A stretch of 61,774 nucleotides of DNA from a virus. This document shows, piece by piece, positions 21,739-37,317 of the stretch. The position numbers were made by a program, and so were the translations under genes. The notes under the pieces were generated by a model. It worked only from the letters and a program-made list of their open reading frames with translations, did not search any database and was not told the origin of the DNA. How positions within the stretch are numbered: position 1 is the first letter of the stretch; each line of letters starts with the position of its first letter. The DNA lies in the IMG/VR virus record IMGVR_UViG_3300045988_126226, positions 131,035 through 192,808 of that record, one strand, 5' to 3'.

Positions 21739-21869
21739 AAAAGCTCGGCAGGATATACAAAATCCTGCCGAGCTTTTTATTCAATTTGCCTATTGACTTT
21801 TGTTATAGCTCATGCTATACTATAATTGTTCCAAGGGAACGACATTAAAGATGAAAGAGGTTAATAAAG

Positions 21870-22109: not shown

Positions 22110-22124
22110 AATTAAATTTTTTGA

Positions 22125-22330: not shown

Positions 22331-22374
22331 AGTAAGGGAAGGAAAACCTAAACAAACCGGAAAGGGATAACAAC

Positions 22375-22683: not shown

Positions 22684-22761
22684 AAGAAATTGCATATAGG
22701 GCTTGACAAAAGCCCTTCCGCATGATATAATACATATACAATCAAGAAAGAGGTAAGTAAG

Positions 22762-22911
22762 ATGGATATGGTTCGAGTTTACAATAGACACACTAACGAA
22801 GTTCTTGAAAAGACCTTTGCAGACCCCGCGGACGCAGACGACTTTGAAACTATTCTCGACTTCCTTGAAGCGGAATATGAGCGCTACCACGATGGGGAAC
22901 AATGTTATTAA
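22762..22911 (+). CDS. small acidic protein (49 aa)
   Basis: promoter cttgacaa..tataat, SD aagaaagagg, TAA. Confidence 0.45.
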   Translation: MDMVRVYNRHTNEVLEKTFADPADADDFETILDFLEAEYERYHDGEQCY

Positions 22912-22983
22912 AGGGGCTTGACAAGCCCCTCCCCATATGGTATAATACAATCAATCCAAGAGGAAAAGAAAGAGGTAAAACAA

Positions 22984-23322
22984 ATGCTTATCAAAATGTC
23001 AAAACACGCCACGCAAGACCGCATTGACCGCTTGTTCTTCATCTATGACAATATCGGTATTGGTGAGCCATATATCGACAGCGCTGAGGAAGATGTTCTC
23101 TACACCATCACTACAACAGGCGTTCTTCTTGTTCGTAGTGCTACGGACGGCACACTCATTACAGCCTATATCGCGAATATTGACAAAATCACCGCGATAT
23201 GGAGAAACAAGCACGGCGAGCGCCCCATGCCTGACAACCTTTACAAGCGTGTCCTCGCAAATGCGTTCTTTGATAGAATGTGGAATAAACAGGAAAAGGA
23301 GAAAAAGAAAAATGTTCGGTAA
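22984..23322 (+). CDS. hypothetical protein (112 aa)
   Basis: promoter ttgacaa..tataat, SD aaagagg, TAA. Confidence 0.5.
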   Translation: MLIKMSKHATQDRIDRLFFIYDNIGIGEPYIDSAEEDVLYTITTTGVLLVRSATDGTLITAYIANIDKITAIWRNKHGERPMPDNLYKRVLANAFFDRMWNKQEKEKKKNVR

Positions 23323-23668
23323 GAAGAAAGAAAAGAAATTCAATCCCTATGAGAATCGCGCAGACGAAATGCTTTATAAGGTTTGGGAAGAGCGCGACCG
23401 CCTGCTTGAAAAGACAAGGCAAGCTATTACGCGCGTAGGAGTGATTAACCTCTACCCCGATGGCGCTGACCGCAAGAAAGCCGTCTCTGACGCCGAAGAA
23501 GCGAAGCACGCTTTGCTTGTAGCTATTGGAGCATACGACACCGCGCGCATGGAGTATAATAACTACATCAAAAAGTATGCGGAAAAGTTCGATAGCCCCA
23601 AAGAGGAATGGACTACCACGAGCCATGAAATTATTGAATGGGCTTACAAATACTATTATAAAGGGTGA
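23312..23668 (+). CDS. hypothetical protein (118 aa), basic N-terminus
   Basis: ATG 23312 with SD aaaaggag; overlaps previous gene end. Confidence 0.5.
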   Translation: MFGKKKEKKFNPYENRADEMLYKVWEERDRLLEKTRQAITRVGVINLYPDGADRKKAVSDAEEAKHALLVAIGAYDTARMEYNNYIKKYAEKFDSPKEEWTTTSHEIIEWAYKYYYKG

Positions 23669-23673
23669 ACGAA

Positions 23674-23913
23674 ATGAAAATTACTGTTAAGCATAGCAAC
23701 AAAATGGTTGCATTTGAAGACCTCCCCGAGGGTATGATTTTTCAAGACCCTGCTTCTGGAAACGTTTATTACATCAAAATCGCGTCTGTGGTTGATGAAG
23801 ATACCGGCGCAGAAGAATGGAACGCTCTCAATTTAGACACTTACAATCTCGACTGCTTTGGCGCGCCCTGCATGGTTCGGCCTGTCTATGACGCGGAACT
23901 GATTATCCCTTGA
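23674..23913 (+). CDS. hypothetical protein (79 aa)
   Basis: ORF with SD aagggtg, TGA. Confidence 0.5.
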   Translation: MKITVKHSNKMVAFEDLPEGMIFQDPASGNVYYIKIASVVDEDTGAEEWNALNLDTYNLDCFGAPCMVRPVYDAELIIP

Positions 23914-24009
23914 CAAAACCGAACTTTTGTTCGTGTTTTTCTCCCCCTTTCCTATGGCTTTGGCGGTTGTGCCTGAAACAACCGCCACCCTTTCCAAAAA
24001 ATAAATTGA

Positions 24010-24201
24010 ATGGAGATAAGAAAAATGAAAAATGAGAAACTGAGCGAGGTTGTTGAAACGGTGTGCAGAATGGCTCGATACGGTATTCAGAAGAGATATC
24101 CATCGGGCGGGACAGCGGCAAATGAAATGATTGAGCGTGTCGCGCTTCTTGAAGATAAGCTCGTCCCCATTCTCGTCGACCTCGAAGCCGTAGGAAACTA
24201 A
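24010..24201 (+). CDS. hypothetical protein (58-63 aa)
   Basis: two candidate ATGs (24010/24025) after ggagataag; TAA; terminator follows. Confidence 0.45.
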   Translation: MEIRKMKNEKLSEVVETVCRMARYGIQKRYPSGGTAANEMIERVALLEDKLVPILVDLEAVGN

Positions 24202-24203
24202 AT

Positions 24204-24400
24204 GAAAAATCACCCAATTTGGGTGATTTTTTTTGTTTACTTTCACTATTGACAAAGTTCCTTGAATGTGATAAAATTGGCGGCGCGCGGACGATTGTAG
24301 CGCGCCGAGTTTTTTGTCAAGAGGTAGATTCAACAAATTTTCATACGAATTTTTGTGCAAAATGCCAATAGACAAAAATCCTATAATGTGGTAAGATGTA
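24204..24400 (+). promoter_or_regulatory. regulatory cassette C: terminator; P1 ttgaca(24249)-tgtgataaaat; hairpin cggcgcgc..gcgcgccg (24279-24309); TGTCAAGAG (24314); P2 tagaca-N17-taagat
   Basis: read directly. Confidence 0.55.
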
Positions 24401-24424
24401 TACAACAAATAAAGGGGGACTAAA

Positions 24425-24772
24425 ATGATGGTTGCATGGTATTGGTTGATTCTCGCGTTTTGCGTGGGTATTGCGTTCGCTACAATCACCGATGAGTGGT
24501 GTGATTGGGAAAATACTTTAACAGATGTTCTCGCATGGATTGCTCTGATTATCGGCTTCGTTCCTTTGTCTTTCTATTGCATATTTCTCAAACTGACGGT
24601 TTTTCACCCCACAACGCCAGAGAAATTTGAAGAAGTTAAAAAGGTTAGCGGAGAGACTTGTAAAATCTATCGAGTATGCGGAAACGTGTATTTTTGGATT
24701 GACCTTAAAGCAACAAAAATCTATAACAAGGTCTTTTTTGTCCGAGTAAAGGAGACTGAAAACAATGTATGA
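24425..24772 (+). CDS. membrane protein (115 aa, 2 TM)
   Basis: SD aaaggggga, hydrophobic helices, TGA. Confidence 0.55.
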   Translation: MMVAWYWLILAFCVGIAFATITDEWCDWENTLTDVLAWIALIIGFVPLSFYCIFLKLTVFHPTTPEKFEEVKKVSGETCKIYRVCGNVYFWIDLKATKIYNKVFFVRVKETENNV

Positions 24773-24923
24773 GGAAGTTAATACTTTGCGCTTGATTGAT
24801 TGGTTGCGCGCTTGGACGGAAACCTTTAATGACTGCGCTTGTTGTCCTTTGTCCAACGAGTGCGACCGCCGAAGCATCAGCTATGAATGTGCTGATGACC
24901 TATTAGAAAAATTAAAAGAGTAA
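24765..24923 (+). CDS. Cys-rich small protein (52 aa)
   Basis: SD aaaggagac, CACCP..C..C motif, TAA. Confidence 0.45.
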   Translation: MYEEVNTLRLIDWLRAWTETFNDCACCPLSNECDRRSISYECADDLLEKLKE

Positions 24924-24996
24924 ATTAAAAACTCTCTATTGACATTTCTATTATAATATGATATTATTATAATAGAAAAAGGAAAGGGTGATAATA

Positions 24997-25470
24997 ATGA
25001 ATACAATTCTTCTGTTCGCACTTTGCACGGCGGTGAATGTGATTCTGTCAACCATCAAAAGCATTTTGACTGTCAACGGCGGAAAGATTAGCGCGTCTCT
25101 TATCAATGCCATCACTTATGGTTTTTATTCCTATGTGATTGTGCTGACTTCCGCGGACGGTATGCCTATTTGGTTAAAAATGGCTATTACTGCCGTTTGT
25201 AATTTCATAGGCGTTTACCTTGTCAAGTGGATTGAAGAGAAAGCCCGCAAAGATAAATTATGGAAAGTCGAGCTTACTGTCCCGACAAAATACACTAACA
25301 CCATTGATTTTGATTTGCATGACGTTCCACATTCTTACATTGAATTGAGCGATAAACATACGCTTTTCAATTTTTACTGCGCGACCCAAAAGGAAAGCGC
25401 AAAAGTCAAGGCTATTGCCAATCAATACGAAGCAAAATATTTTGTCGCGGAAAGCAAAAATCTTGAATAA
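24997..25470 (+). CDS. membrane protein (157 aa)
   Basis: SD aaaggaaagggtg, N-terminal TM helices, TAA. Confidence 0.55.
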   Translation: MNTILLFALCTAVNVILSTIKSILTVNGGKISASLINAITYGFYSYVIVLTSADGMPIWLKMAITAVCNFIGVYLVKWIEEKARKDKLWKVELTVPTKYTNTIDFDLHDVPHSYIELSDKHTLFNFYCATQKESAKVKAIANQYEAKYFVAESKNLE

Positions 25471-25534
25471 AGGACTTGACAAAAGCCTTTTGTTCTGCTA
25501 TACTTAATGTATCAAGTGAAAGGGGAAAATTAAA

Positions 25535-25987
25535 ATGAAAGCTACTGGTATTATCCGCAGAATTGATGACCTTGGACGTGTGGTTATTCCGAAAGAGATT
25601 CGCCGGACTTTGAAGATTCGCGAGGGCGACCCGCTTGAAATCTTCATTGAAGACAACGACTGCGTTTGCTTTAAGAGGTATTCGGTGCTTGGTTCGCTGA
25701 CCGAAGAAGCTCTGCGAACCGCTATTACAATGGCATCGAATTCCGGTCTGCGCCCTATCGCAATCTATGATACTACCGTGAAACTGCGGGGTATGGAAAA
25801 CTATCCGGCTTATGTTCCGACCCAGTGGAAATTTGAAAGAAAGCCGTTTGTTTTCAATAGCACTTATGGCGTTTATCCGATTACCGCGGACGGCGACCTT
25901 GTGGGTTATGCGGTTTGCGACCAGCAAGACATGGGTTGCGAAATGGATATGATTGTCCGCTATCTCAGCATTGTGTCTGAATGTTAA
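25535..25987 (+). CDS. AbrB/SpoVT-family transcriptional regulator (150 aa)
   Basis: N-terminus GIIRRIDDLGRVVIPKEIRRTLKIREGDPLEIF matches the swapped-hairpin AbrB/MazE/SpoVT DNA-binding domain; C-terminal extension as in SpoVT. Confidence 0.65.
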   Translation: MKATGIIRRIDDLGRVVIPKEIRRTLKIREGDPLEIFIEDNDCVCFKRYSVLGSLTEEALRTAITMASNSGLRPIAIYDTTVKLRGMENYPAYVPTQWKFERKPFVFNSTYGVYPITADGDLVGYAVCDQQDMGCEMDMIVRYLSIVSEC

Positions 25988-25992
25988 AAATA

Positions 25993-26245
25993 TTTTGAGA
26001 CGAGATAACCAAATCTCGTCTCAAAATTTTATTTATTTTGCCTATTGACAAAAATCCAATAGCGTGATAAAATGGCCGGCCGTTCGCGCATGCCACGGCC
26101 GGAAATTCCATTATACCACCATCTCAGCAATTTGTCAATAGGAAATTTAGCCAAAAGTCTAACTAATTATTTTCCCGAATTTGGGCATTTTACCAATAGA
26201 CAAGAATGTAATAATCTGCTATACTATGATTACCGTAAAGGAAAG
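25993..26245 (+). promoter_or_regulatory. regulatory cassette D: terminator; P1 ttgaca(26045)-gtgataaaat; hairpin ccggccg..cggccgg (26074-26102); conserved spacer; P2 tagaca(26197)-N17-tatact
   Basis: read directly. Confidence 0.55.
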
Positions 26246-26257
26246 GGGATATAAACA

Positions 26258-26521
26258 ATGTATTACACTCACGATTTTTCTACTGAAAAGTTCTCTACTC
26301 GCGGAGAATGTGTGGAAGAGCTTCTTTCTTCTATGGATTCTCTTGATATTTCAGAGTTTCTCGCCCACCGCGTTTCTCTTGCTGATATTATTAGTGAACG
26401 CATGGCCCGCGACCCCGAGGACTTTTACGACTGGTTAGATAGAGAAATTCAGATTGCGACTAATGCCTATCTTGAATGGCATATCAACGAACACTACGGT
26501 CATATAGAGGATTTAGAATGA
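26258..26521 (+). CDS. hypothetical protein (87 aa)
   Basis: SD aaaggaaagggg, TGA. Confidence 0.55.
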   Translation: MYYTHDFSTEKFSTRGECVEELLSSMDSLDISEFLAHRVSLADIISERMARDPEDFYDWLDREIQIATNAYLEWHINEHYGHIEDLE

Positions 26522-26661
26522 TTATTTTAATCGGCATTTTCGGCCTCGTTTTTGGCTTTATTTTTGCTTATTCCTGTGAAAGTCTCGGGTGGGACTATTT
26601 CAATATCGTATACGCTATTCCTGTGCTGATTTTGCTTAATTTCTTATCTTTCGTGTATTGA
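26518..26661 (+). CDS. small membrane peptide (47 aa)
   Basis: ATGA overlap with previous stop; hydrophobic. Confidence 0.4.
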   Translation: MIILIGIFGLVFGFIFAYSCESLGWDYFNIVYAIPVLILLNFLSFVY

Positions 26662-26752
26662 AAAAGACCGCGAAAATTTTGAAAAAAACGCTTGACAAGC
26701 AAATCCAATAGTGGTATAATACAGATACAGTAAAGGAAAGGGGTAAATACCT

Positions 26753-27253
26753 ATGAAAATCACTTACATCAAGTCTCACGTTGTAGCTACTCGACGCTCC
26801 ATCAACTTTGATATGGACGGCACTATCGCCAATCTGTATAATGTTGACAAGTGGTTAGAAAAACTTGGAGAAGAAGATGCTTCTTGTTATAGTGAAGCTG
26901 GCCCTATGTGCGATATGGCCGCGCTGAATGAAATCTGCGAACTTCTCCGCGCCGAGGGTTGGGAAATCAATATCATCACTTGGCTTGCTAAAAATTCAAC
27001 TGAGGAATATAAAAACCTCGTGCGTGAAGCAAAGCGCGAATGGCTTGAAAAATGGGGTTTCCATTACGACCATTTTTACGGCGTCCAGTATGGCGCAACC
27101 AAAGCCGACAGCGTGCGCGGTCGTTATGACGTGTCTATCCTGATTGACGATAATGAAAAGGTTCGGAATGGTTGGCACTTGGGCGCTACCATTGACCCGA
27201 CCGCAGTAAACATTATCGAAAAACTTTCGGAACTTTTGGAGAAAAGGGCTTGA
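26753..27253 (+). CDS. HAD-superfamily phosphatase, likely 5'(3')-deoxyribonucleotidase-like (166 aa)
   Basis: motif I FDMDGTIANL (DxDG[TV]) near N-terminus and ILIDDN motif IV; promoter cttgacaa..tataat; SD aaaggaaagggg. Confidence 0.6.
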   Translation: MKITYIKSHVVATRRSINFDMDGTIANLYNVDKWLEKLGEEDASCYSEAGPMCDMAALNEICELLRAEGWEINIITWLAKNSTEEYKNLVREAKREWLEKWGFHYDHFYGVQYGATKADSVRGRYDVSILIDDNEKVRNGWHLGATIDPTAVNIIEKLSELLEKRA

Positions 27254-27308
27254 CAAAGCCCTACTCCAATGGTATAATAAATACATCAAATGAAAAGGGG
27301 AAAATAAA

Positions 27309-27515
27309 ATGTTTGTTCTTTTGATTCTGCTGTCTCTCGCTGTTTCGTTCCTGCTTACCTCGGGTTTGGTTTGGCTTCTCTGTTGGCTTCTTCCCGCCCT
27401 CGGTATCACCGCAATCGGCACTTTTGTTATCGTGTTCTCGTGGAAGCTGGCGCTCGTGGTTTGGATTGTTCTCGTGCTTTTACAGTCCATCTTCTCGGTC
27501 GGCAATAAGGGGTGA
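27309..27515 (+). CDS. small membrane protein (68 aa, 2 TM)
   Basis: SD aaaagggg, hydrophobic. Confidence 0.5.
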   Translation: MFVLLILLSLAVSFLLTSGLVWLLCWLLPALGITAIGTFVIVFSWKLALVVWIVLVLLQSIFSVGNKG

Positions 27516-27520
27516 TAAAA

Positions 27521-27664
27521 ATGATGCCTTACTTTTGGCTTACTCTTGGCGTTCTCGCCAAAGTGACCGGACGAACTGCCGGTGGTAATTACCGTTATGA
27601 AACGGTTGTCTCTAAGGAAATTGGACTTGTGACCGCAGATTGGGTTAATACCCATCTGTTGTGA
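27521..27664 (+). CDS. small protein (47 aa)
   Basis: ATG 27521 after ggggtgataaaa; TGA. Confidence 0.4.
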   Translation: MMPYFWLTLGVLAKVTGRTAGGNYRYETVVSKEIGLVTADWVNTHLL

Positions 27665-27671
27665 GGTAAAA

Positions 27672-27986
27672 ATGCTGTATTTGATGATGGATAATTTAAC
27701 CAATAGCCATTTGGTTAAAGTTGGCTATTCTGACGGCACTAAGAACCTCGCAAAGCGTCGTAAAAGCTATTATAGCCACAATCCGAAAGCAATAATGCGT
27801 AGCACTTGCGCCGGAAGTCGAGACATAGAAAATTCTTGTCATCTGACTTTAAGTGAGTTAGGCAATCGCATTAGTGGCACAGAATGGTTTGAAGTGTCTG
27901 CGGATTTGTTTAATTCTCTTTATACCGAGGGAATGGCATTTTTCAGACCAAACCATAAACCGATTCATTTCTTAGAAGAATTTTGA
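27672..27986 (+). CDS. T5orf172/GIY-YIG-like domain protein (104 aa)
   Basis: VKVGYSDGTKNLAKRRKSY...TEWFEV pattern typical of the T5orf172 family. Confidence 0.45.
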   Translation: MLYLMMDNLTNSHLVKVGYSDGTKNLAKRRKSYYSHNPKAIMRSTCAGSRDIENSCHLTLSELGNRISGTEWFEVSADLFNSLYTEGMAFFRPNHKPIHFLEEF

Positions 27987-28000
27987 AAGAGGAAATAAAA

Positions 28001-28258
28001 ATGAAAGTAAATTTTGGCACTAAGGGTCAGCTTCAAATTATCAACATTCTCAGTGGTGGCACGTTCACCACCCCGCGTTCCAATGGCGTCGGCATGGGAA
28101 TGTATCTCAAAATTGACAGCAACAACAACACGCCGTTCGTTCGGTCGAGAGGTTCGCAGTATTGCTACGCGGTAAATCTTGAAACGGGTCAGGTTCGCGA
28201 GTTCTCGCGCGACAAAATGGTGACGCCGGTCAAGACCGAAGTCAATGTGATTGGCTAA
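28001..28258 (+). CDS. hypothetical protein (85 aa)
   Basis: SD agaggaaa, TAA, terminator. Confidence 0.5.
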   Translation: MKVNFGTKGQLQIINILSGGTFTTPRSNGVGMGMYLKIDSNNNTPFVRSRGSQYCYAVNLETGQVREFSRDKMVTPVKTEVNVIG

Positions 28259-28261
28259 AAG

Positions 28262-28492
28262 AAAATCTCCCCAAAAATGGGGAGATTTTTTTTGTTTACT
28301 TTAACTATTGACAAAACCATCTAAATGTGCTAAAATTGGCCGGTCGCTGACGCATGTTGCGACCGGAATTTACCATTATACACCCCACCAGCATTTTTGT
28401 CAAGAGAAATTTCGCACAAATTTCAATTTTATTTTTTCCCGTTATTTGGTTATTTTACCAATAGACAAATCATTACCAATCTGCTATACTAC
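28262..28492 (+). promoter_or_regulatory. regulatory cassette E: terminator; P1 ttgaca(28308)-tgtgctaaaat; hairpin ccggtcgc..gcgaccgg (28338-28366); TGTCAAGAG (28399); P2 tagaca(28462)-N17-tatact
   Basis: read directly. Confidence 0.55.
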
Positions 28493-28494
28493 AT

Positions 28495-28638
28495 AATGTC
28501 AGGAGGAAAGAGTAAGACCTGCGGAAAGGCAGTTCCCTTGACCATTATACCAAAATCCGACGGAATGTTCCAAGCGTGGCGTGCCGAACAAACTTTCAAA
28601 AAAAGTTTGAAAAACCCCTTGACAAACCGTTCTACGTA
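28495..28638 (+). ncRNA. promoter-proximal leaderless transcript AAUGUCAGGAGG... (sRNA or 47-aa leaderless ORF MSGGKSK.. ending in TAG)
   Basis: AUG lies 5 nt after -10 tatact; no SD; paralogous to 31032 and 31215 elements; ends at -35 of next promoter. Confidence 0.4.
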
Positions 28639-28901
28639 GGGTATAATGAATACATCAAATAAGAGAGGTAAACAAAATGATTTCTGATGCTCGTCCACCG
28701 CCTTAAAGACTGATTTGGTTTAGTAAAATGAATTGATTTATGATTATAGATAAAGGTAGGTATAAACAAGATGTATAGTAATAAACCTCGCGACCGCCCC
28801 CTAAAAAAATTGTAAAACCTATTGACAACCTGCTCCGCCTATGATATAATAACTACATCAAAGACAAGGACAGTCTTAAAAACCAGAAAGGAATTGATAC
28901 T

Positions 28902-29276
28902 ATGTCTACTTCTACTGTTAAGAAGCTCACCAAGCGCGACCGTTTCGAGGCTCTGCTCAAAATGAGCGAGGTTCAGGCGAATCCTGATATGGTGGCGTTC
29001 ATTGAGCATGAGATTGAACTGCTCGCCAAGAAGAACGCGGGCGATAAGAAGCCCACGGCCAAGCAGATGGAGAATGACGCCGTGAAGCAGGTCATTCTGG
29101 ACGAGATGACCGCAAACCCTGACAAGCTGTATACCGTGACCGACCTCATCAAGGGCGTTCCCGAGCTTGCGGAGTATACCAACCAGCGCGTTTCCGCTCT
29201 TCTGCGTCAGATGATTGATGCAGACACGGTTGTCAAGACGGTTGACAAGCGCAAGTCCTACTTCTCCCGCGCGTAA
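28902..29276 (+). CDS. paralog family protein A (124 aa)
   Basis: SD aaaggaa; about 70% identical to 31522..31899; distant paralog at 50327. Confidence 0.6.
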   Translation: MSTSTVKKLTKRDRFEALLKMSEVQANPDMVAFIEHEIELLAKKNAGDKKPTAKQMENDAVKQVILDEMTANPDKLYTVTDLIKGVPELAEYTNQRVSALLRQMIDADTVVKTVDKRKSYFSRA

Positions 29277-29419
29277 GGGTAAAGGGCAGGGGATAAAAAA
29301 AATCCCCTGCCCCACAATAAAAAACTGTTGACAAACCAATAGCAAAGTGCTATACTATTATCAGAGGTTGAGAGAACGATGGTAAACCTCAATCTACTTT
29401 TCCAATAGGAGACGATAAA

Positions 29420-30196
29420 ATGGGTATTGATAGGCGCAGAAACTACGGTATTATGCTGGACACGGAAACCGCAAACACCATTCAAGATGGTGATAAGCTG
29501 GATATGTCAAATGTTCTCCCCTACGACTTTGGCTGGGCGGTCATTGATTCCAAGGGTAATGTTTATGAGACTTATTCTTTTGTGAATCGAGACATTTTCT
29601 GCTATGAGCGCGACCTGATGCAGTCCGCATACTACGCCAATAAGATTCCCCGCTACATCGAGGACATTAAGAACGGTTCGCGCGTGATGGCTGACCTTTA
29701 CGAAATCCGCAAGGCATTTTGTGATTGCGTCGAGCGTTATAACTGTTCTTTCGTGTGCGCTCACAATATGCGGTTCGACCTTAACGCCTGCAACAACGCG
29801 CAAAGATGGGACACGAAAAGCAAGTATCGCTATTTCTTCCCCTACGATCTCGAAATCTGGGACACTCTGAAAATGGCGCGACAGGTTATGGGTAAAATGC
29901 CCACTTACCGCGACTATTGCGAAAAAAACGGCTACAAGACCAAGAACGGACAGCTCCGTTTCACCGCAGAAATTCTTTACCGCTTTATCAGCGGTGAAGA
30001 TAGCTTTGATGAATCCCACACGGGACTTGAAGATGTTCTCATTGAAGTTGAGATTCTGCGCTATTGCGTCCGACAGCACAAGGAAATGGAAAAGTCCCTT
30101 TTCAAAACTCCCACAGTGGAACGTCCCAAGCCGACCGAGTTTCAGCGCGCGCTCATGCGAAACATTAAGGAAAATCCCATGATAAACATGAGCTAA
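29420..30196 (+). CDS. DEDDh-type 3'-5' exonuclease (DnaQ/RNase T-like, 258 aa)
   Basis: Exo I MLDTETA, Exo II CAHNMRFDL, Exo III HTGLEDV motifs in correct order and spacing. Confidence 0.65.
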   Translation: MGIDRRRNYGIMLDTETANTIQDGDKLDMSNVLPYDFGWAVIDSKGNVYETYSFVNRDIFCYERDLMQSAYYANKIPRYIEDIKNGSRVMADLYEIRKAFCDCVERYNCSFVCAHNMRFDLNACNNAQRWDTKSKYRYFFPYDLEIWDTLKMARQVMGKMPTYRDYCEKNGYKTKNGQLRFTAEILYRFISGEDSFDESHTGLEDVLIEVEILRYCVRQHKEMEKSLFKTPTVERPKPTEFQRALMRNIKENPMINMS

Positions 30197-30274
30197 AAAA
30201 AAATAGGGAATGGGGCTTGACAAGTCCTATTCCCTATGGTATAATCAATGTATCAAATGAAAGAGGTGTTTTAC

Positions 30275-30553
30275 ATGACTGCTAAACAAGTCCTTTTTGT
30301 AGTCCCTGATGACAATGACCCTCACATGGGCATTTTAATCGACCATGACTATATTATCTGCGCCGAGTGCGGTGGCGTCTTTGAAGCTGACGAAGTTTTC
30401 ATTATTCAGATCTACGACTCTTGGGTAAACTTTGAAGATGAAATTGCGGACGAGCTTGACCTGCTGACCGCAAAAGACATTGGCAAGGAGCTGGATAGCA
30501 AGGAAAAGTTCGGCTGGGACGCGTGGAAAGAAGCCATTAAAGGGGAGTTCTGA
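30275..30553 (+). CDS. hypothetical protein with CxxC pair (92 aa)
   Basis: promoter cttgacaa..tataat, SD aagaggtg, TGA. Confidence 0.5.
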   Translation: MTAKQVLFVVPDDNDPHMGILIDHDYIICAECGGVFEADEVFIIQIYDSWVNFEDEIADELDLLTAKDIGKELDSKEKFGWDAWKEAIKGEF

Positions 30554-30555
30554 AA

Positions 30556-30648
30556 ATGGATTTGGATTTTACTTACATGACCAACGAAGAACTGGACGAA
30601 CTCATCGCTCAGATAAAGGAAGTCAAAGAAACCCGAGCGGAAAGCTGA
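30556..30648 (+). CDS. small acidic peptide (30 aa)
   Basis: ATG 3 nt after previous stop. Confidence 0.3.
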   Translation: MDLDFTYMTNEELDELIAQIKEVKETRAES

Positions 30649-30799
30649 AAGACTGACCTTTGGAGAAACGTTCAGCGGTCGGTTCAGAATTACGTCATGG
30701 AGTGTGGAATGATTGAACTCTTTACCGAGGACTACAATTCCACGCTGGACGCTGATTCTTTCCGTATTCCCGGCGAGATTAACCTGCTGGACTAAAATA

Positions 30800-31030
30800 A
30801 AAAACTGCCCAAAAATGGGCAGTTTTTTTTGTCTATTTTGCCTATTGACAAACGCGGATTTTTGTGATAAAATGGGCGGACCGCTGGCGCATGCGGCGGT
30901 CCGAATTTTTAATTATACCATGCCCCGCCAATTTTGTCAAGAGAAAAGCTGCACAAAAGTAAAGAAAATTTTTTCCCGTAATTTGGTTATTCTGTCAATT
31001 GTAATTTGTGGGCAATCTGCTATAATGAAT
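30800..31030 (+). promoter_or_regulatory. regulatory cassette F: terminator; P1 ttgaca(30845)-gtgataaaat; hairpin cggaccgc..gcggtccg (30875-30903); TGTCAAGAG (30935); P2 -10 tataat (31021)
   Basis: read directly. Confidence 0.55.
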
Positions 31031-31031
31031 A

Positions 31032-31175
31032 ATGTCAAGAGGGAAACCCCTGAGCCACAGGTCGGTGTGGGGCTACGGTTGGAAGTAGCAATAGACCGTT
31101 CACCTATTACGTTAAGGTCTCTTCGGAGCGGAACGCACGGGATAAAAGAAAAAATTCATGAGTTTTTTCTTGAAA
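31032..31175 (+). ncRNA. candidate sRNA 1 (starts AAUGUCAAGAGGGAAA; contains CUC-UUCG-GAG tetraloop hairpin)
   Basis: own promoter (-10 tataat 31021); no SD; only an 18-codon ORF ending in TAG; ends at -35 of next promoter. Confidence 0.45.
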
Positions 31176-31214
31176 ACCTCTTGACAAATCCCAGCGAGTG
31201 TGCTACAATAGAAA

Positions 31215-31440
31215 ATGTCAAGAGGGAGTAGCCCAAGAAATCCGAGGGCGCGCGACTTCGAGAAAGTACAGGAAGTAAACATAATATACCACGTTGTAAA
31301 GCCAAACGTTGAACGCGAAAGTGAGTTTGATTGAGCCAACTATACTCGAAGCGGTTTTCGCTGACAGATAGATTGAACCAACAAACAATAAATTATCCGT
31401 CAGGTCGGGGTAGTAATTCGTGTAAAAAGTTTGCGAAACC
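31215..31440 (+). ncRNA. candidate sRNA 2 (starts AAUGUCAAGAGGGAGU; shares CAGGUCGG motif with sRNA 1)
   Basis: own promoter ttgaca(31181)-N17-tacaat; no long ORF or SD; followed by promoter of 31522 gene. Confidence 0.45.
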
Positions 31441-31521
31441 TCTTGACAAGCACTCTAAAATGTGGTATACTCAATATATCAAAAGGGTAGCGACCTACCG
31501 CCAAAGAAAGGAATTGATACT

Positions 31522-31899
31522 ATGTCTACTTCTACTGTTAAGAAGCTCACCAAGCGCGACCGTTTCGAGGCTCTGCTCAAACTGTCCGAAGTTCAGGCTG
31601 ACCCCGCCATGGTTGAGTTTATCAATCACGAGATTGACCTGTTGGCTCGCAAGAACGCGGGAGACAAGAAGCCCACGGCGAATCAGATTGCCAACGACGG
31701 CTACAAGGACATTATCTTTGCTGAGCTGTCCGCGAATCCCGACAAGCTGTATACCGTGACCGAACTCATCAAGAACGTGGACGGTCTGGGTGACCTCACC
31801 AATCAGCGCGTTTCCGCTCTTTTGCGTCAGATGATTGACGCGAACGGCGTCGAGAAGATTGTGGACAAGCGCAAGTCCTACTTCCGTCTCGCGCGCTGA
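31522..31899 (+). CDS. paralog family protein B (125 aa)
   Basis: promoter cttgacaa(31443)..tatact, SD aaaggaa, TGA, strong terminator 31903-31935. Confidence 0.6.
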   Translation: MSTSTVKKLTKRDRFEALLKLSEVQADPAMVEFINHEIDLLARKNAGDKKPTANQIANDGYKDIIFAELSANPDKLYTVTELIKNVDGLGDLTNQRVSALLRQMIDANGVEKIVDKRKSYFRLAR

Positions 31900-31999
31900 T
31901 TCAGGGGGAGCGCCTGAAAAAAATCAGGCGCTCCCAAAAATTTCTCTTGACATTTGCTGACGGCGGTGTTATAATCATACTTGAAAGGGGGCAAAAGAA

Positions 32000-32407
32000 A
32001 TGCCTAAAATGAGTGAAAAGGACTTTCAGGCAAAGATTGATAATCTAATGAAAAAATTAGATTGTACTGCCGAGGAAGCAAAAGAAATTCTCATGGACGA
32101 TGATGACATTGACCATGGAATCGCCAAGGACTTTGACCTGTCCGCGGAAAAGCTCAAAGAAGCTAACAAGTATTCTAAGACCGGAACACGCAAAGCGCCG
32201 ACCGCTTATAAATTCGAGAAGCGACAGCGCAAGGAAAACCCCACAAAACGCTCGATTATCGCTGAACTTGCGACTTTTTTGCGTGAAAACAGCGAAAATG
32301 CGTGCGAAAATGTGGAAATTACGAATGTGGAGCGCATGATTGCGTTCCATGTGGGCGAAAATGACTACGAATTGACCCTGATTCAGAAGCGAAAGCCCAA
32401 AAACTGA
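32000..32407 (+). CDS. hypothetical protein (135 aa)
   Basis: promoter ttgacat..tataat, SD aaaggggg, TGA, terminator 32412-32452. Confidence 0.55.
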   Translation: MPKMSEKDFQAKIDNLMKKLDCTAEEAKEILMDDDDIDHGIAKDFDLSAEKLKEANKYSKTGTRKAPTAYKFEKRQRKENPTKRSIIAELATFLRENSENACENVEITNVERMIAFHVGENDYELTLIQKRKPKN

Positions 32408-32525
32408 TGAAAAAGGGTGAAAAACCGCTGAAAAATGCGGTTTTTCACCCAAAAACAAGTCAAAAAATGCAAAAAAATAATGGTTGAAAGAACGATGGTA
32501 AACCTCAATCAATAGAGAGGATTTT

Positions 32526-32942
32526 GTGCGAATGGAAGAAATTACTATTAAGCTACGCCGATTTAAGGACGGCAGACCGCCCGTTTCAATGGAGTTTATG
32601 CCCGATTGTGGCGAGAATCTGAAAGACGTTCAAGCGGTTTATTTCTTCAAGTTTTACAACAACAACAAACTTGAATTTAACAAGGTAGGCACTTCCGCAA
32701 AAGACGTTGTAGGGCGCTTACGTGATGAAATCGGCGAATACTCGAAAAAGTATTCTATCACTCGCGTTGAGATTCACCGAATCCGTTCTTGTGGGGACTA
32801 TCCCGCCGAGGGTGCGGAATCGGCATTGCGTGCGGAACTGATTAGACGCTACCCCAAAGCGTTTAGAAAGAATGACCGCTTTTTCAATGTGGACATTAAC
32901 CCCACGGTTTTCGATGAAATTGTAAACGCATTTCTTGCATAA
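32526..32942 (+). CDS. hypothetical protein (136-138 aa; GTG 32526 or ATG 32532)
   Basis: SD agagagga; preceded by conserved leader stem-loop; TAA; terminator 32950-32985. Confidence 0.5.
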   Translation: MRMEEITIKLRRFKDGRPPVSMEFMPDCGENLKDVQAVYFFKFYNNNKLEFNKVGTSAKDVVGRLRDEIGEYSKKYSITRVEIHRIRSCGDYPAEGAESALRAELIRRYPKAFRKNDRFFNVDINPTVFDEIVNAFLA

Positions 32943-32949
32943 ATATTCA

Positions 32950-33062
32950 ATCAGCAGGTTGACTAAAACCTGCTGATTTTTTTTGTGTATTTTGCCTATT
33001 GACACCGATCGGAAAATGTGGTATAATGGCCGGGCCGGGGTGGGACGTCCCGGCCCGATTTC
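32950..33062 (+). promoter_or_regulatory. regulatory cassette G: terminator; P1 ttgaca(32998)-tggtataat; GC hairpin 33028-33057; followed by ~270 bp non-coding with CCATATG inverted repeat
   Basis: read directly. Confidence 0.5.
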
Positions 33063-33336
33063 CCGATCGGTATACCCATATGCAAAATTTCTCATACTTC
33101 TAGCACCTCTCCATATGGCCCAAAAAAATCCCGAAAATTGACTTTTTATAAAAAATATGTTATAATGATAAAAAAAGACTTTTTTAAGCCCGCGTAGGAT
33201 CATATGCCTTTATAATTAATTAAAAATTGCTTCGCCCTTACATTGTTTCACGCGTATGTTTTCGTCCAAAAAAATCTTGACATTTTTAAAAAAAAAGTAT
33301 ATAATATATATAGAAAATAAGAAAAGAGGTATTCAT

Positions 33337-33714
33337 ATGGATATGAATGATATTATTGCTCGTCTAAAAAATGGTGAGGACGCTCAGGCTATTGCGGACG
33401 AAATGGCTAAGTCTCTGAATGATGCGGTTAAGCAAGTGGAGAAGGAAACTAAGCAGGCCGATCGGAAGACCGCGCTCGCGCAGGAAATCGCTGATCGGAT
33501 TAACGAGTATGCCGCTCTTAATGGCTGCAAGGATTCCGCGTTGACCGCGTCTGATGTGGAGAATATCTTTGCTGAGGTTTACGGTCTTATGACCGGGGTT
33601 ACCGATCTTCTTGACGCGCTTTTTCCCAAGAGTGAGAAGGTAAAGGTTAAGAAGGTCAAGAGAACTGATGATGATGTAATTGCCGAATTTTTGAATACTT
33701 TCATCAATAAGTGA
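33337..33714 (+). CDS. hypothetical helical protein (125 aa), first gene behind middle-type promoter
   Basis: promoter cttgacattttt..tatataat, SD aagaggt, TGA, terminator agagagac..gtctctc-T8. Confidence 0.55.
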   Translation: MDMNDIIARLKNGEDAQAIADEMAKSLNDAVKQVEKETKQADRKTALAQEIADRINEYAALNGCKDSALTASDVENIFAEVYGLMTGVTDLLDALFPKSEKVKVKKVKRTDDDVIAEFLNTFINK

Positions 33715-34011
33715 ACAATGTGTAGGGTGAGATATTTTTCATCCTAAGAATCGACAATTTCACCAAGAATTGCCTAATATGAAAAAAGAGAGACTGAAAA
33801 AAGTCTCTCTTTTTTTTAGGTCCGGAGATCGGAGACGGGAAAATGTGGTTGGTGGTTTAGTTAAACCGATCGACACCACATTTCCGCAATTTCCGCAATT
33901 TCTACGATTTCTACGATTTTTATCATCTTTTATTACTCTACATCTTCCAATTCCGAACCATCCATTAATTTAATCACTATCCAAAAGCGAATCAACCAAT
34001 ATAGGTCTATT

Positions 34012-34086
34012 AACGATCTCTTCCAGCGTTCCATAGGCAATATCCAATAGCAACACCAAGTAAAAAACAAATAACACCAGCCATAA
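34012..34086 (-). CDS. small hydrophobic peptide (24 aa)
   Basis: SD gaggaggg 7 nt upstream, coupled to previous stop. Confidence 0.35.
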
Positions 34087-34094
34087 TACCCTCC

Positions 34095-34490
34095 TCAATG
34101 AGAACACGTAGTGTTCGAATCTGTTAAAAGCTCTTCCAACTTTGTTTTAAATGCGCTATCAAGAATGTCATCAGCAAGCGTTCTCTTGCTAAGATCCACA
34201 TCATCAGATCCAGGAGCAACAGAATTAACAACCTGCGGTTTCTCCTCAATGACAGGCTTCACATAGCTATATTCATTCTCGATATATTCTACCCTACCTT
34301 GCTCAGTAATTCGACCAAGAACCTTACCATGAAAAACTAACTTATTACAGTCGTCCCAAATAAGATATGCGCCTCGCGTATCCTCCCTATTAAAGAACTC
34401 TTTCTTAGTAGTAGCAATTACATTCCAATTGCGGAAGACGCCTACCTTTTCTCCATTATTTTTCTTTAATTCTTCAATCGTAAATTTCAT
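34095..34490 (-). CDS. hypothetical protein (131 aa)
   Basis: ATG 34490 with SD aaaagga; TGA stop; structured GC-rich 5' leader. Confidence 0.5.
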   Translation of the reverse strand: MKFTIEELKKNNGEKVGVFRNWNVIATTKKEFFNREDTRGAYLIWDDCNKLVFHGKVLGRITEQGRVEYIENEYSYVKPVIEEKPQVVNSVAPGSDDVDLSKRTLADDILDSAFKTKLEELLTDSNTTCSH

Positions 34491-34669
34491 TTCATTTTTC
34501 CTTTTCAAATTTCGCGTTCGCCACGCCGGCAGGCGACTCGGATCTACGATCCTCCCTGCCTACGGGGTATTATTTTTCATTTCATTTTTTCTTTTATTAT
34601 ATATATTATAATATATTATTTATTATAAATCAAATAATACCCCTATAAACGAGGGCATTTATACCCTTA

Positions 34670-34945
34670 TCAACGAGGATACGTAGTATCCGAGTTAATT
34701 GACTCTTGTAAGAATGGATTTTCTTCTATTGATTCAGGTCTATCTTCCCTATCAACGAGGGCACTTGTGCCCGAAGTCTTATCTGGAATAACAAAATAAA
34801 TAGTATCATCTTTTAAATATAAATCAGGCTTTACCATATTTGTTTTATCCATCTTATCAAACTATTCTTGCGTTCCTCTCATAAATTTTACTATCGAAGG
34901 ATTGCCTTTTCCTCCTCTTATTACATCTTCATAACTATAACTCAT
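34670..34945 (-). CDS. hypothetical protein (91 aa, 1 TAG)
   Basis: ATG 34945 with SD ggagtaaaat; TGA stop. Confidence 0.4.
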
Positions 34946-35095
34946 ATTTTACTCCTTTTACTCTCAAAAAACACCCCAGTATATATTTATAAAACGAAGG
35001 GCGTAGCCCGGAGTTTTATAAATATATACATTTCTATTTCTATTTATAAAGGATACTAAAATTTTAACAACTGGCGTCTAAATTTTTAACATTTC

Positions 35096-35752
35096 ATTTA
35101 GAGGGGTTGTGCAATAAATTTAACAAACTAAATGAAATATTTACTCTATTACATTTGTTAACCAATCAAGTCTATAAATAGTTTTTACATTCTCAAATGA
35201 ATCATTCTCTTGCTAAAAAGTAGATAATGAATATTTAATTAAACCAATTTTTCCTAATACATATAAAATATTTATAATTATATCATTATTACTTCTTGTA
35301 GTAGTGCAAATACCAATATGAGCTTTAATACTATCTAAAGTAAACTGATAGGGTTTACATCCTTGTCTATAATATTCATTCAATAAATAAACATAAGCTG
35401 AAATACAATTTTCACTTAAAGTGTCAGTAAGTAATTTTAAAGTATTATAAGGAATCAATGAAGCGTAATCTTTATCTAATTTAATTAAAGAATAAGTATT
35501 TTTATCTACTTCAATAATTAATCCTAATTCTTTTAAATTCTTAAATTTAGTAGAAATAGTCTAACGAGTTAATCCAAATTTTTCACCTAATTTGCTAAAA
35601 TTAATATCTTTCTTATAAAATAATCTTTCACCAGTCATTTCATTAAGAACAGACACCTATTGTAAATAAGCATAAAGGATATCATAATATTTTTTATTAG
35701 AACAAATATCTATAGTTTTTGGAACCTATCTTGAATTCTTCTATATATCCAT
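35096..35752 (-). CDS. winged-helix/HTH DNA-binding protein, candidate iteron-binding replication initiator (218 aa, 5 TAG)
   Basis: HTH segment LGEKFGLTR-Q-TISTKFKNLKELGLI; ORF 35213..35458 extended both ways through TAG; adjacent to iteron array. Confidence 0.45.
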
Positions 35753-35814
35753 TTTATACCTCCTTTCTCATATATACATCAAATATCTTGTTAACTCATT
35801 AACAACATTCGTCC

Positions 35815-35965
35815 AATAAATAGATGTCTAATTTTTTAACAAAATATATAGGTGTCTAAAATTTTAACAAAATTTTTTAACATTCATATAGATGTCTAAA
35901 ATTTTAACACTTTTAATATTTTTATATAGGTGTCTAAAATTTTAACAAAAATTTTTAACACTTTT
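35815..35965. repeat. iteron array: 4 direct repeats of RRRTGTCTAAAATTTTAACA (plus a fifth copy at 35065-35082)
   Basis: repeats read directly at 35822, 35852, 35891, 35929; intergenic between divergent gene blocks. Confidence 0.7.
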
Positions 35966-36247
35966 TCTTACATTGTATTACGCGGTTTCCCTTGCCCTAA
36001 TCCGCCTCTATACTTGCTATCCGATCTCTTCATCAAAAATTTTTGACCAGAAATATAGAAAAAAAACGGACAAAAATATAGAAAATTTTGACCATTTTCA
36101 TTTAAAATGACCATTTTTGGTAAGCCGATCATTGAACCCAGTCTTTATGCTACCTTGAAGCGACAAAACCGCTTTATTGATTTTTATTAAATTTTAATAT
36201 ATAATATAAATATAAAATAAAGAAAAACTATTGAAAGGTGATAAATA

Positions 36248-36586: not shown

Positions 36587-36602
36587 AGAAAGGAGAATAA
36601 AT

Positions 36603-37303: not shown

Positions 37304-37317
37304 AGGAGTTTTTAAAT

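What the first reader, a model, noticed from the sequence alone, without database searches (positions are those of the whole stretch)
29362..29419. Conserved 5' leader stem-loop with TAG-terminated MVNLN micro-ORF upstream of two genes
Upstream of the DEDDh exonuclease (29365-29408) and of gene 32526 (32482-32515) there is an identical element, GGTTGA(G/A)AGAACGATGGTAAACCTCAATC. It forms a hairpin (gaggtt...aacctc) whose loop contains ATG GTA AAC CTC AAT (MVNLN...). Each micro-ORF is closed by TAG, the recoded codon. If amber suppression turns on late, ribosomes would read through into or over the downstream SD and start codon in a different frame. This would be a plausible translational timer coupling early-gene shutoff to suppressor-tRNA appearance. 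Alternatively it is a protein-binding operator.
Basis: inference. Interest (0 to 1): 0.65.

Follow-up and report, generated by a model that had tools for sequence, protein, structure and literature searches.

The report
Phage early-mRNA leader hairpin family

Summary
The 29-nt element is present at 29366-29394 and 32482-32510 (28/29 identical; 0 expected by chance). It belongs to an undescribed family (no Rfam match) found only in the 5' leaders of two early genes of a clade of large, uncultured phages whose closest cultured relatives infect Firmicutes. The genes are a DEDDh exonuclease and a 136-aa protein whose relatives often carry an HTH. Seventeen distinct variants, including seven different lower-stem versions, share one architecture: a 7-8 bp lower stem, an internal loop, a 2-bp apical helix (R-Y, C-G), a G-A-(U/A)-G tetraloop and a 3' A-rich bulge. 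On a hand-made alignment, 92% of cells pair, 9 of 10 pairs change on both sides, and 0/500 shuffles reach this. The "ATG" is tetraloop positions 2-4 and is AAG in three lineages. The micro-ORF peptide, length and SD are not conserved. Best reading: a post-transcriptional RNA operator/5' stabiliser whose conserved apex is recognised by an unidentified factor. It is a new member of a known kind of element, of moderate interest.

The parts
29328..29356 (+). Sigma70-type early promoter of the exonuclease gene (TTGACA-17-TATACT, with TG upstream of the -10). The predicted transcription start is about 29363, 2-3 nt before the hairpin.
   Evidence: The same architecture is seen in relatives of classes A, C and D and in L184, L189 and L265. 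The start site is an inference.
29366..29394 (+). Hairpin copy 1. Lower stem 29366-29372 pairs with 29388-29394 (GGTTGAG/CTCAATC, with G.U at pair 2). Apical helix A29376-C29377 pairs with G29382-T29383. Tetraloop GATG at 29378-29381. 3' bulge AAA at 29384-29386.
   Evidence: It is 29/29 identical to the orthologous copy in the L011 phage, although fourfold-degenerate sites of the adjacent gene are only 51% identical.
29379..29408 (+). It is most likely a by-product of the tetraloop sequence rather than a conserved coding unit.
29407..30196 (+). SD (AGGAGA, 29407-29412) and DEDDh exonuclease gene (ATG 29420, TAA ending at 30196).
   Evidence: (phrog_20187; weak match to phrog_192, DNA polymerase exonuclease subunit).
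31947..32407 (+). Consensus promoter (31947-31975) and upstream gene (32000-32407). Read-through from here probably carries site 2 on a bicistronic message.
   Evidence: Co-transcription is an inference.
32415..32450 (+). 14-bp hairpin after the upstream gene, with no U-tract on the + strand, followed by a 31-nt A-rich linker (32451-32481).
   Evidence: It is conserved with compensatory changes in L060.
32482..32510 (+). Hairpin copy 2. Lower stem 32482-32488 pairs with 32504-32510. This window's copy carries a unique G-to-A change at 32488 that breaks pair 7. Apical helix 32492-32493 pairs with 32498-32499. Tetraloop at 32494-32497.
32495..32515 (+). Its SD potential is at background level.
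32516..32942 (+). SD (AGAGGA) and 'gene B' (ATG 32532, alternative GTG 32526; TAA ending at 32942). The 136-aa core domain is fused to an N-terminal sigma70-region-4-like HTH in many relatives.

Best explanation
Both copies belong to a previously undescribed family of small structured RNA elements in the 5' leaders of two early phage mRNAs, one for a DEDDh exonuclease and one for 'gene B'. The RNA folds into a 7-8 bp lower stem of free sequence, a small internal loop, a 2-bp apical helix (R-Y then C-G) capped by a G-A-(U/A)-G tetraloop, and a 3' A-rich bulge. Shown: the structure is under selection, its apex is conserved in sequence, and it is tied to these two genes. Inferred: it acts after transcription as an operator. 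A trans-acting factor, either a phage protein common to these lineages or a conserved host factor, would recognise the conserved apex and set the translation and/or lifetime of the two messages. The hairpin sits 1-6 nt from the predicted 5' end and about 3-25 nt upstream of the SD, so it would also shield the 5' end from 5'-end-dependent decay. The ATG and TAG are incidental to this function.
For: (1) Structure. Seventeen distinct variants from exonuclease and gene-B leaders, including seven different lower-stem versions, pair in 92.2% of cells. Nine of 10 pairs change on both sides, 0/500 shuffles reach any measure, and slid controls give 14-50%. Eight divergent members fold to the same shape independently, with z from -2.0 to -4.9. 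(2) Conserved apex with free stems. L189, L265 and L302 share the identical stretch AGCGATGGCAAA between three different lower stems: TAGGGAG/CTCCCTA, AATCAAG/CTTGATT and ATTTGGG/CCCAAGT. Among 30 hits to that 16-mer, only the three in exonuclease leaders have 8-bp stems; the chance hits have 2-4 bp. (3) Constraint. Site 1 is 29/29 identical between phages whose exonuclease fourfold sites are 51% identical and whose flanking non-coding DNA is 73-82% identical. Classes A and C are 27/29 identical although their proteins are 62% identical. (4) Gene specificity. Protein-anchored samples that were blind to the element found it only in front of these two genes. Both genes carry it in the window and L011 types. 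Only the exonuclease carries it in class C, L184, L189 and L265. Only gene B carries it in L320-L322. Neither carries it in L316/L318. A scan of 1.56 Mb of held sequence found no other context. (5) Position. It starts 8-12 nt after the -10 box in every promoter-linked copy. (6) The tetraloop U changes to A, and only to A, three times independently, in L166, L300 and L049. That fits a recognition motif (GAWG) rather than a start codon. (7) Precedent. The T4/RB69 gp43 operator is a leader hairpin with a conserved loop, and some relatives do not autoregulate (PMC3014915).
Against: No binding factor has been identified. Gene B cannot be the universal factor, because an invariant-motif scan finds it in none of the class C, L184, L189 or L265 contigs. 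The exonuclease as autoregulator is untested, and close homologs do without the element (L044/L046 are 90% identical to class C). L199-L205 keep an L184-like stem but lack the apical core, and many other exonuclease leaders start with unrelated hairpins. A plain protective hairpin may therefore be the ancestral or sufficient function. Predicted effects on RBS accessibility are small, below 1.7 kcal/mol. At site 2 of this window there is no good promoter, so the hairpin is 5'-terminal there only if the message is processed. Promoters and start sites are predictions. The structural alignment was made by hand and is fitted to the structure, and the number of independent lineages is small (about 7).
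Confidence: 0.5

Rival explanations
1. A purely cis-acting 5' protective hairpin. It would sit at the native 5' end of the exonuclease mRNA, and at the processed 5' end of the gene-B mRNA after cleavage in the A-rich linker. It would block RppH/RNase J1-type 5'-end-dependent decay and need no sequence-specific binder.
For: The hairpin starts 1-6 nt from the predicted start site in all promoter-linked copies. Many exonuclease leaders in related phages begin with unrelated hairpins, and L199-L205 keep the stem without the apical core. The site-2 layout (upstream gene, 3' hairpin, AU-rich linker, hairpin, SD) matches the cggR/gapA and glnRA RNase Y sites, which have a downstream stabilising hairpin (PMC11780869). 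The aprE leader combines a 5' stem-loop with ribosome binding (PMC7509114).
Against: It does not explain why the apical 10-12 nt stay nearly invariant while the lower stem is rebuilt seven times. It also does not explain why only these two of about 25 early genes with consensus promoters carry it.
Confidence: 0.25
2. A translated micro-ORF or ribosome decoy. Ribosomes would start at the AUG and either couple translation to the main gene, because the stop lies next to its SD, or simply occupy and stabilise the leader.
For: AUG is present in 14 of the 17 aligned variants. A purine-rich SD-like run often precedes it (-6.5 kcal/mol in classes A and C). The micro-ORF always ends 5-24 nt before the main AUG. 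Ribosome binding without productive translation stabilises ermC and aprE mRNAs (PMC7509114).
Against: AUG is AAG in L166, L300 and L049. The SD is at background level in about 60 site-2 copies. The AUG is buried in a closed tetraloop. Peptide and length are not conserved (5-11 codons). Codon-2 and codon-3 changes are non-synonymous and track base-pairing instead. An early in-frame stop is expected by chance in AT-rich leaders, by my estimate about 50% within 9 codons.
Confidence: 0.1
3. Late expression of an amber suppressor would make ribosomes read through the micro-ORF TAG and run over the main start in another frame, shutting off the early gene.
For: In this window both micro-ORFs end in TAG, although early genes almost never do (TAA 17, TGA 14, TAG 1 among 32 SD-supported ORFs). 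Read-through would cover the main starts, giving a 68-aa product ending at 29583 and an 18-aa product ending at 32549. Late genes are TAG-recoded.
Against: Close relatives close the same element with TGA (L011 type; there the micro-ORF is in frame with the main ORF) or TAA (L079 type). Distant members use TAA or TGA. Some lack the AUG. Site 2 lacks an SD. No CTA-anticodon tRNA was found in the window. TAG-like triplets before the SD occur in leaders without any upstream ATG, for example TAGGAGA after the promoter at 51705.
Confidence: 0.03
4. A double-stranded DNA site: an operator for a repressor (inverted repeat GGTTGAG-N15-CTCAATC overlapping +1 to +30) or a phage-specific promoter.
For: It lies immediately downstream of a strong promoter, a classic operator position. 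An AbrB/MazE-type DNA-binding protein is encoded nearby at 25535-25987. Gene-B relatives carry an HTH.
Against: The half-site sequences are not conserved. They are replaced by unrelated but still complementary sequences, including G.U pairs that are mismatches in DNA. The inner A-U to G-C covariation has no meaning for a duplex site. There is no sigma70-like spacing inside the element. One or two copies per genome is too few for a promoter class.
Confidence: 0.04
5. No function of its own. The element would be a short cassette spread by recombination among mosaic promoter/leader modules, and its identity would reflect recent exchange rather than selection.
For: Its distribution on the exonuclease tree is patchy: class C is 90% identical to L044/L046, which lack it. 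Leader modules are clearly mosaic, since class C copies have two different promoter spacers. Site 2 diverges at a near-neutral rate, 25/29 identical.
Against: Compensatory maintenance of pairing across seven different stem versions and two genes, and retention at the same leader position in lineages whose exonucleases are only 30-60% identical, are not expected of a neutral passenger.
Confidence: 0.05

Closest known systems
T4/RB69 gp43 (DNA polymerase) translational operator
   Same: It is a small hairpin in the 5' leader of a phage replication-type gene, just upstream of the SD. The loop sequence is conserved between phages while the stem differs, and it is present in some relatives and absent in others (PMC3014915).
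   Different: There is no sequence similarity. The apex here is a 2-bp helix plus a GAWG tetraloop with a 3' AAA bulge, not an 8-nt loop. The regulated protein is a stand-alone DEDDh exonuclease, and a second, unrelated gene carries the same element. The binder is unknown and autoregulation is untested.
5' stabiliser elements of Firmicutes mRNAs (aprE leader 5' stem-loop, ermC, the phage SP82 polypurine stabiliser, the cggR-gapA and glnRA stabilising hairpins)
   Same: It is a hairpin within a few nucleotides of the native or processed 5' end, in a phage whose closest cultured relatives infect Firmicutes. Site 2 has the arrangement of an AU-rich linker followed by a hairpin (PMC7509114; PMC11780869).
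   Different: Those elements are defined by structure or by SD-like sequence, not by a conserved apical motif. Stabilisation is not shown here.
Lambda nut boxB / N antitermination hairpins
   Same: There are one or two copies per genome in early leaders. The hairpin is small, its loop is the recognition element, and its stem covaries (from my own knowledge).
   Different: There is no boxA-like partner and no N-like protein has been identified. The element sits directly at the RBS of single genes rather than upstream of terminators. This was not tested further.
Regulatory leader peptides / uORFs (ermC, cat, tnaC type)
   Same: A short ORF lies in the leader and ends next to the main SD.
   Different: The start codon, the SD and the peptide are not conserved, and no alternative-pairing switch that involves the main RBS is predicted.
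MS2 / Qbeta / PP7 coat-protein operator hairpins
   Same: An SD-like arm and an AUG are embedded in a small hairpin that a protein recognises through loop bases (from my own knowledge).
   Different: In those phages the AUG is the start of the regulated gene. Here it is about 40 nt upstream of the real start and is dispensable.

Membership tests
Any described RNA family (Rfam 15) | A covariance-model match at or near the gathering score | tested here: not met
   Window 29300-29480: best hit 15.2 bits against a gathering score of 49.9 (E = 3.4). Five loci with divergent members: the only hit has E = 0.22, lies away from the hairpin and is below its gathering score.
Leader-peptide / uORF regulator | A start codon conserved across homologous leaders | tested here: not met
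   ATG is replaced by AAG in L166, L300 and L049 while the rest of the element is intact.
Leader-peptide / uORF regulator | A functional SD at proper spacing | tested here: inconclusive
   -6.5 kcal/mol in classes A and C, but -2.2 to -2.9 at site 2, which is background level. The SD-like bases lie inside the stem.
Leader-peptide / uORF regulator | A conserved peptide, or synonymous-only change | tested here: not met
   Eight different peptides of 5-11 residues. The changes are non-synonymous and preserve pairing.
   TGA in the L011 type and L265. TAA in the L079 type, L184, L189, L302 and L304.
Protein-binding RNA operator hairpin (gp43 / MS2 type) | A hairpin supported by covariation, with a sequence-conserved apex | tested here: met
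   92.2% of cells paired, 9 of 10 pairs with both-sides changes, 0/500 shuffles reach this. C16, A18, G20, G21 and A23 are invariant.
Protein-binding RNA operator hairpin (gp43 / MS2 type) | It lies within or next to the ribosome-binding region of the regulated gene | tested here: met
   The 3' end of the stem lies 3-13 nt upstream of the SD in classes A-D and up to about 25 nt in distant members.
Protein-binding RNA operator hairpin (gp43 / MS2 type) | A specific binding protein and repression on binding | not testable with these tools
   Gene B is excluded as a universal binder by its distribution. The exonuclease and host factors remain untested.
5'-terminal mRNA stabiliser hairpin | The stem begins within a few unpaired nucleotides of the 5' end | tested here: inconclusive
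   It starts 8-12 nt after the predicted -10 box in all promoter-linked copies. The start sites are predicted rather than mapped, and site 2 in the window would need processing.
5'-terminal mRNA stabiliser hairpin | It increases mRNA half-life | not testable with these tools
   This needs half-life measurements.
Intrinsic terminator / attenuator | A G+C-rich stem followed directly by a U-tract | tested here: not met
   The terminator scan does not call it. No U-run abuts the stem at site 2 or in class C.
Palindromic DNA operator | Half-site sequence conserved among homologous sites | tested here: not met
   The half-sites are replaced by different complementary sequences, and the G.U pair is kept.
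Sigma70-type promoter | -35 and -10 hexamers at 16-18 nt spacing | tested here: not met
   The promoter scan does not call a promoter inside the element. Read by eye, TTGAGA has no acceptable -10 box 16-18 nt downstream.

The most novel reading that the evidence does not exclude
When the apex melts, ribosomes would start at the tetraloop AUG and stop at TAG early in infection. Once the phage's amber suppression turns on, they would read on across the exonuclease and gene-B start sites (68 and 18 codons), adding a genetic-code-dependent shut-off to an older RNA operator. This would be the first cis-regulatory use of stop-codon recoding outside coding genes.
Probability: 0.03. Interest if true: 0.8.

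Novelty: new member of a known kind. Interest (0 to 1): 0.42.

Why it matters
The result adds a well-supported, previously uncatalogued structured RNA motif to the very small set of known cis-regulatory RNAs of uncultured gut phages. It defines a two-gene post-transcriptional unit, an exonuclease and an HTH-family protein, conserved across lineages whose proteins have diverged to 30-60% identity. The conserved apex provides a concrete bait for finding the RNA-binding factor. It is also a caution for work on stop-codon-recoded phages: a TAG-closed micro-ORF in a leader can be a by-product of RNA structure and of purine-rich SD context, not evidence of recoding-based regulation.

Tried and rejected
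1. Rfam at a permissive threshold on the window site and on divergent members gave nothing.
2. Nucleotide search of the early region against deposited phages gave no match. Protein searches place the phage near Enterococcus, Geobacillus and Bacillus phages, and distantly near Phass-1.
3. A trans partner complementary to the loop in the window appears only at chance level. A conserved nearby CCAUC(G) partner is absent.
4. Searches for extra or diverged copies in the window and loci, by covariance model and by structure-aware regex, found none beyond the two gene contexts.
5. Genome-collection hits were chance matches inside coding sequence, apart from one 'Mollicutes' MAG contig that is this phage.
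6. The idea that the element masks or unmasks the main RBS was rejected: opening energies change by less than 1.7 kcal/mol.
7. Gene B as the trans-factor was rejected on distribution.
8. The upstream gene 32000-32407 as the split-off HTH half of gene B was rejected: no similarity.
9. A single segmental duplication creating both sites was rejected. The 300-nt paralogous repeat is offset by 2620 nt, whereas the two elements are 3116 nt apart.
10. By eye and from memory only, not as tests, I compared the sequence with the Cheo/LexA box, cre, the PyrR binding loop, RAT, CsrA GGA loops, the preQ1-I aptamer and N4-type DNA hairpin promoters. None fits.
11. MAFFT put the divergent stems out of register. 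I used a hand-made structure-aware alignment with gaps written as N, which leans towards the structure.

Full report

Yes for the sequence. GGTTGA(G/A)AGAACGATGGTAAACCTCAATC occurs at 29366-29394 and 32482-32510 on the + strand, and none is expected by chance. Site 1 lies 9 nt after a near-consensus sigma70 promoter (29328-29356) and 26 nt before the ATG of a 258-aa protein. That protein is a DEDDh exonuclease: D14, E16, D120, H200 and D205 are invariant across homologs, it matches phrog_20187, and it weakly matches 'DNA polymerase exonuclease subunit'.

Site 2 follows a 14-bp hairpin (32415-32450) and an A-rich linker. It precedes a 136-aa ORF with no good promoter of its own. Both copies contain ATG GTA AAC CTC AAT closed by TAG. 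The phage does recode TAG: terminase and portal are full-length only if TAG is sense.

**2. Context**

The 20-34 kb region is an early block in which nearly every small gene has a perfect TTGACA-17-TATAAT promoter. Most have a TG extension and a short generic leader (-10, N6, ATCAAA, nGAAAGAGG, N8, ATG). The exonuclease leader is the exception, with about 27 extra nucleotides. Closest cultured relatives by terminase are phages of Firmicutes (Enterococcus, Geobacillus, Bacillus; 44-47% identity), and the TAG-recoded Phass-1 is a distant relative (PMC10607447).

**3. Relatives found by DNA pattern**

Exact and degenerate pattern scans recovered 141 copies in viral and metagenome contigs of 55-197 kb. 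They fall into four contexts:
- Class A: exonuclease leader, like site 1.
- Class B: like site 2.
- Class C: leader of an exonuclease that is only 62% identical.
- Class D: L011.

The stop of the micro-ORF is TAG in most copies. It is TGA in the L011 type, where the micro-ORF is in frame with the main ORF, and TAA in the L079 type (CAATAAGGAGG). These pattern scans force the core of the element to be invariant, so I did not use them to measure conservation.

**4. Unbiased, protein-anchored samples**

I fetched homologs of the exonuclease and of gene B without reference to the element, and then read their leaders.

*Constraint.* Between the window phage and the L011 phage, exonuclease fourfold-degenerate sites are 51% identical and the flanking non-coding DNA is 73-82% identical, yet site 1 is 29/29 identical. 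Site 2 is 25/29 identical, and two of the four changes form a compensatory pair.

*Divergent members.* All of these lie directly after a sigma70 promoter:
- L184: GGTTGAGGG-AAACGATGGTAAG-CCCCAAC
- L189: TAGGGAG-AGCGATGGCAAA-CTCCCTA
- L265: AATCAAG-AGCGATGGCAAA-CTTGATT
- L302: ATTTGGG-AGCGATGGCAAA-CCCAAGT
- L304: GGTTGAGGG-AGCGATGGCAA-CCCTAACT
- L300: GGTTAGGG-AAACGAAGGTACC-CCCTAATC
- Point variants L163, L166, L104, L004, L021 and L060

L183 and L049 look like looser relatives and were left out of the statistics.

*Distribution.* The element marks both genes in the window and L011 types. It marks only the exonuclease in class C, L184, L189 and L265. It marks only gene B in L320-L322. It marks neither in L316/L318 or in many other lineages. 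Class C exonucleases are 90% identical to homologs that lack it. No other gene context was found in 1.56 Mb of held sequence.

**5. Structure**

The conserved fold has four parts: a 7-8 bp lower stem (GGTTGAG/CTCAATC in the window, with a G.U at pair 2), an internal loop, a 2-bp apical helix, and a GAWG tetraloop with a 3' A-rich bulge.

On a hand-made alignment of 17 distinct variants, 92.2% of cells pair and 9 of 10 pairs change on both sides. The apical R-Y pair is A-U in 13 variants and G-C in 4. No shuffle out of 500 reaches any of the observed measures, and sliding the partner gives 14-50% pairing (earlier versions). Each divergent member folds to this shape on its own, with z from -2.0 to -4.9. 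As an internal control, among 30 collection hits to the 16-mer AGAGCGATGGCAAACT, only the three in exonuclease leaders have 8-bp flanking stems.

Caveats: the alignment is fitted to the structure, there are about seven independent lineages, and start sites are predicted rather than mapped.

**6. What this means for the micro-ORF**

- The ATG occupies tetraloop positions 2-4.
- The U is replaced by A, and only by A, three times independently, in L166, L300 and L049.
- Peptides differ (MVNLN.., MVHFNQ, MVTLN.., MVSPNRKGD, MANSL, MANLIDIIKRI, MANPS, MATLTE), and the changes follow base-pairing rather than codon degeneracy.
- SD potential is at background level for the roughly 60 site-2 copies.
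- Stops are TAG, TAA or TGA.
- In this window, 32 SD-supported early-region ORFs (a mechanical call, including one nested overlap) end in TAA (17), TGA (14) or TAG (1). A TAG-closed ORF is therefore atypical for a real gene here, but unremarkable for a non-coding triplet. The same purine-rich pre-SD context contains TGA, TAA or TAGGAGA in leaders that have no upstream ATG.

I conclude that the micro-ORF and its TAG are by-products. A lineage-specific co-option cannot be formally excluded (about 3%).

**7. Mechanism**

Shown: this is a selected RNA structure with a sequence-conserved apex, tied to the leaders of two specific early genes, and positioned between the predicted 5' end and the SD.

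Inferred: it acts post-transcriptionally. A double-stranded DNA site is unlikely, because the 'half-sites' are replaced by different complementary sequences, a G.U pair is retained, and the inner pair covaries. Predicted cis effects on RBS accessibility are small, and no complementary partner exists nearby.

A conserved apex on top of a free stem is the signature of a recognition hairpin. The closest precedent is the T4/RB69 gp43 operator, which likewise is missing from some relatives (PMC3014915). The binder is unknown. Gene B is excluded as the universal binder by its distribution. The exonuclease itself, another shared phage protein and a conserved host factor all remain candidates.

The main rival is a plain 5' protective hairpin. 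It is compatible with the operator model and possibly ancestral. It is supported by the 5'-terminal position, by unrelated hairpins in other exonuclease leaders, by L199-L205 (stem kept, apex lost), and by the site-2 layout, which resembles RNase Y processing sites with a downstream stabilising hairpin (PMC11780869; PMC7509114).

I put 0.5 on the operator reading, 0.25 on the pure stabiliser, 0.1 on a translated or decoy micro-ORF, and 0.05 or less each on the TAG timer, a DNA site and a neutral cassette.

**8. Novelty and verdict**

No Rfam family matches, and the full-text searches I ran turned up no description of this motif. The recoding literature discusses coding genes, suppressor tRNAs and release factors, not leaders (10.1101/2021.08.26.457843). 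It is a new member of a known kind of element, the phage mRNA leader hairpin operator/stabiliser. It is well supported by covariation and of moderate interest.

Noticed in passing
window 26045-26138, 28308-28403, 30845-30940; also + strand promoters at 22174, 24249 and 32999: Repeated palindromic modules of about 95 bp. Two convergent consensus sigma70 promoters face a central GC-rich hairpin (GGCCGGNCG...CGNCCGGCC), with no SD or ORF behind them. They could be small-RNA genes, insulators or something else.
   Followed up: no
window 58771-58841: A tRNA-like gene with a 6-nt anticodon loop (ATTTAA; ARAGORN reports anticodon 'tt') directly after a perfect promoter at 58700. No CTA-anticodon suppressor tRNA was found in the window, although late genes hold many in-frame TAGs.
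   Followed up: partly
window 17200-34000: Early-region ORFs avoid TAG as a terminator: TAA 17, TGA 14, TAG 1 among 32 SD-supported ORFs. The one exception (30713-31231) continues to 31312 if TAG is read as sense.
   Followed up: partly
window 32532-42942 is not the range; window 32532-32942, with proteins P0048, P0059, P0073 and P0080: The 136-aa 'gene B' core is fused in many relatives (221-230 aa) to an N-terminal sigma70-region-4-like HTH (PF08281, E = 6.8e-9 in P0048). This suggests a regulatory protein family of unknown function. The window carries the short form without the HTH.
   Followed up: partly
window 28885-29184 and 31505-31804: A 300-nt paralogous repeat (78% identity) covering the leaders and 5' parts of two genes (28902-29276 and 31522-31899). 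Each lies upstream of one hairpin site, but the offset (2620 nt) differs from the spacing of the hairpins (3116 nt).
   Followed up: partly
window 29279-29311 and 32415-32450; L320 and L321 upstream of gene B: Strong hairpins at gene ends that are followed by A-runs, not U-runs, on the coding strand. They may be U-tract-less terminators, 3' stabilisers, or terminators for antisense transcription.
   Followed up: no
L199-L205 (exonuclease 67% identical), about 45-65 nt upstream of the exonuclease start (locus position 401): The leader hairpin GGTGAGGG-TAAAA-CCCCACC has the same bulged stem design as L184, but the CGAUGG apical core is missing, as if deleted.
   Followed up: partly
L068 / L070 (GTDB record CAMELE010000001.1, 163,874 bp): A contig filed as an 'uncultured Mollicutes' MAG carries both hairpin sites with the same flanking genes, so it looks like this phage. 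It is either a binning artefact or a hint about the host.
   Followed up: no
window 40328-41269: An HNH/homing endonuclease gene (phrog_374, E = 6.5e-55) with 8 in-frame TAG codons. This fits the idea that recoding delays expression of such genes.
   Followed up: no
window 25535-25987: An early gene with an AbrB/MazE-type (SpoVT-AbrB) DNA-binding N-terminus (PF04014, E = 3.1e-10). It is a candidate early transcription regulator.
   Followed up: no
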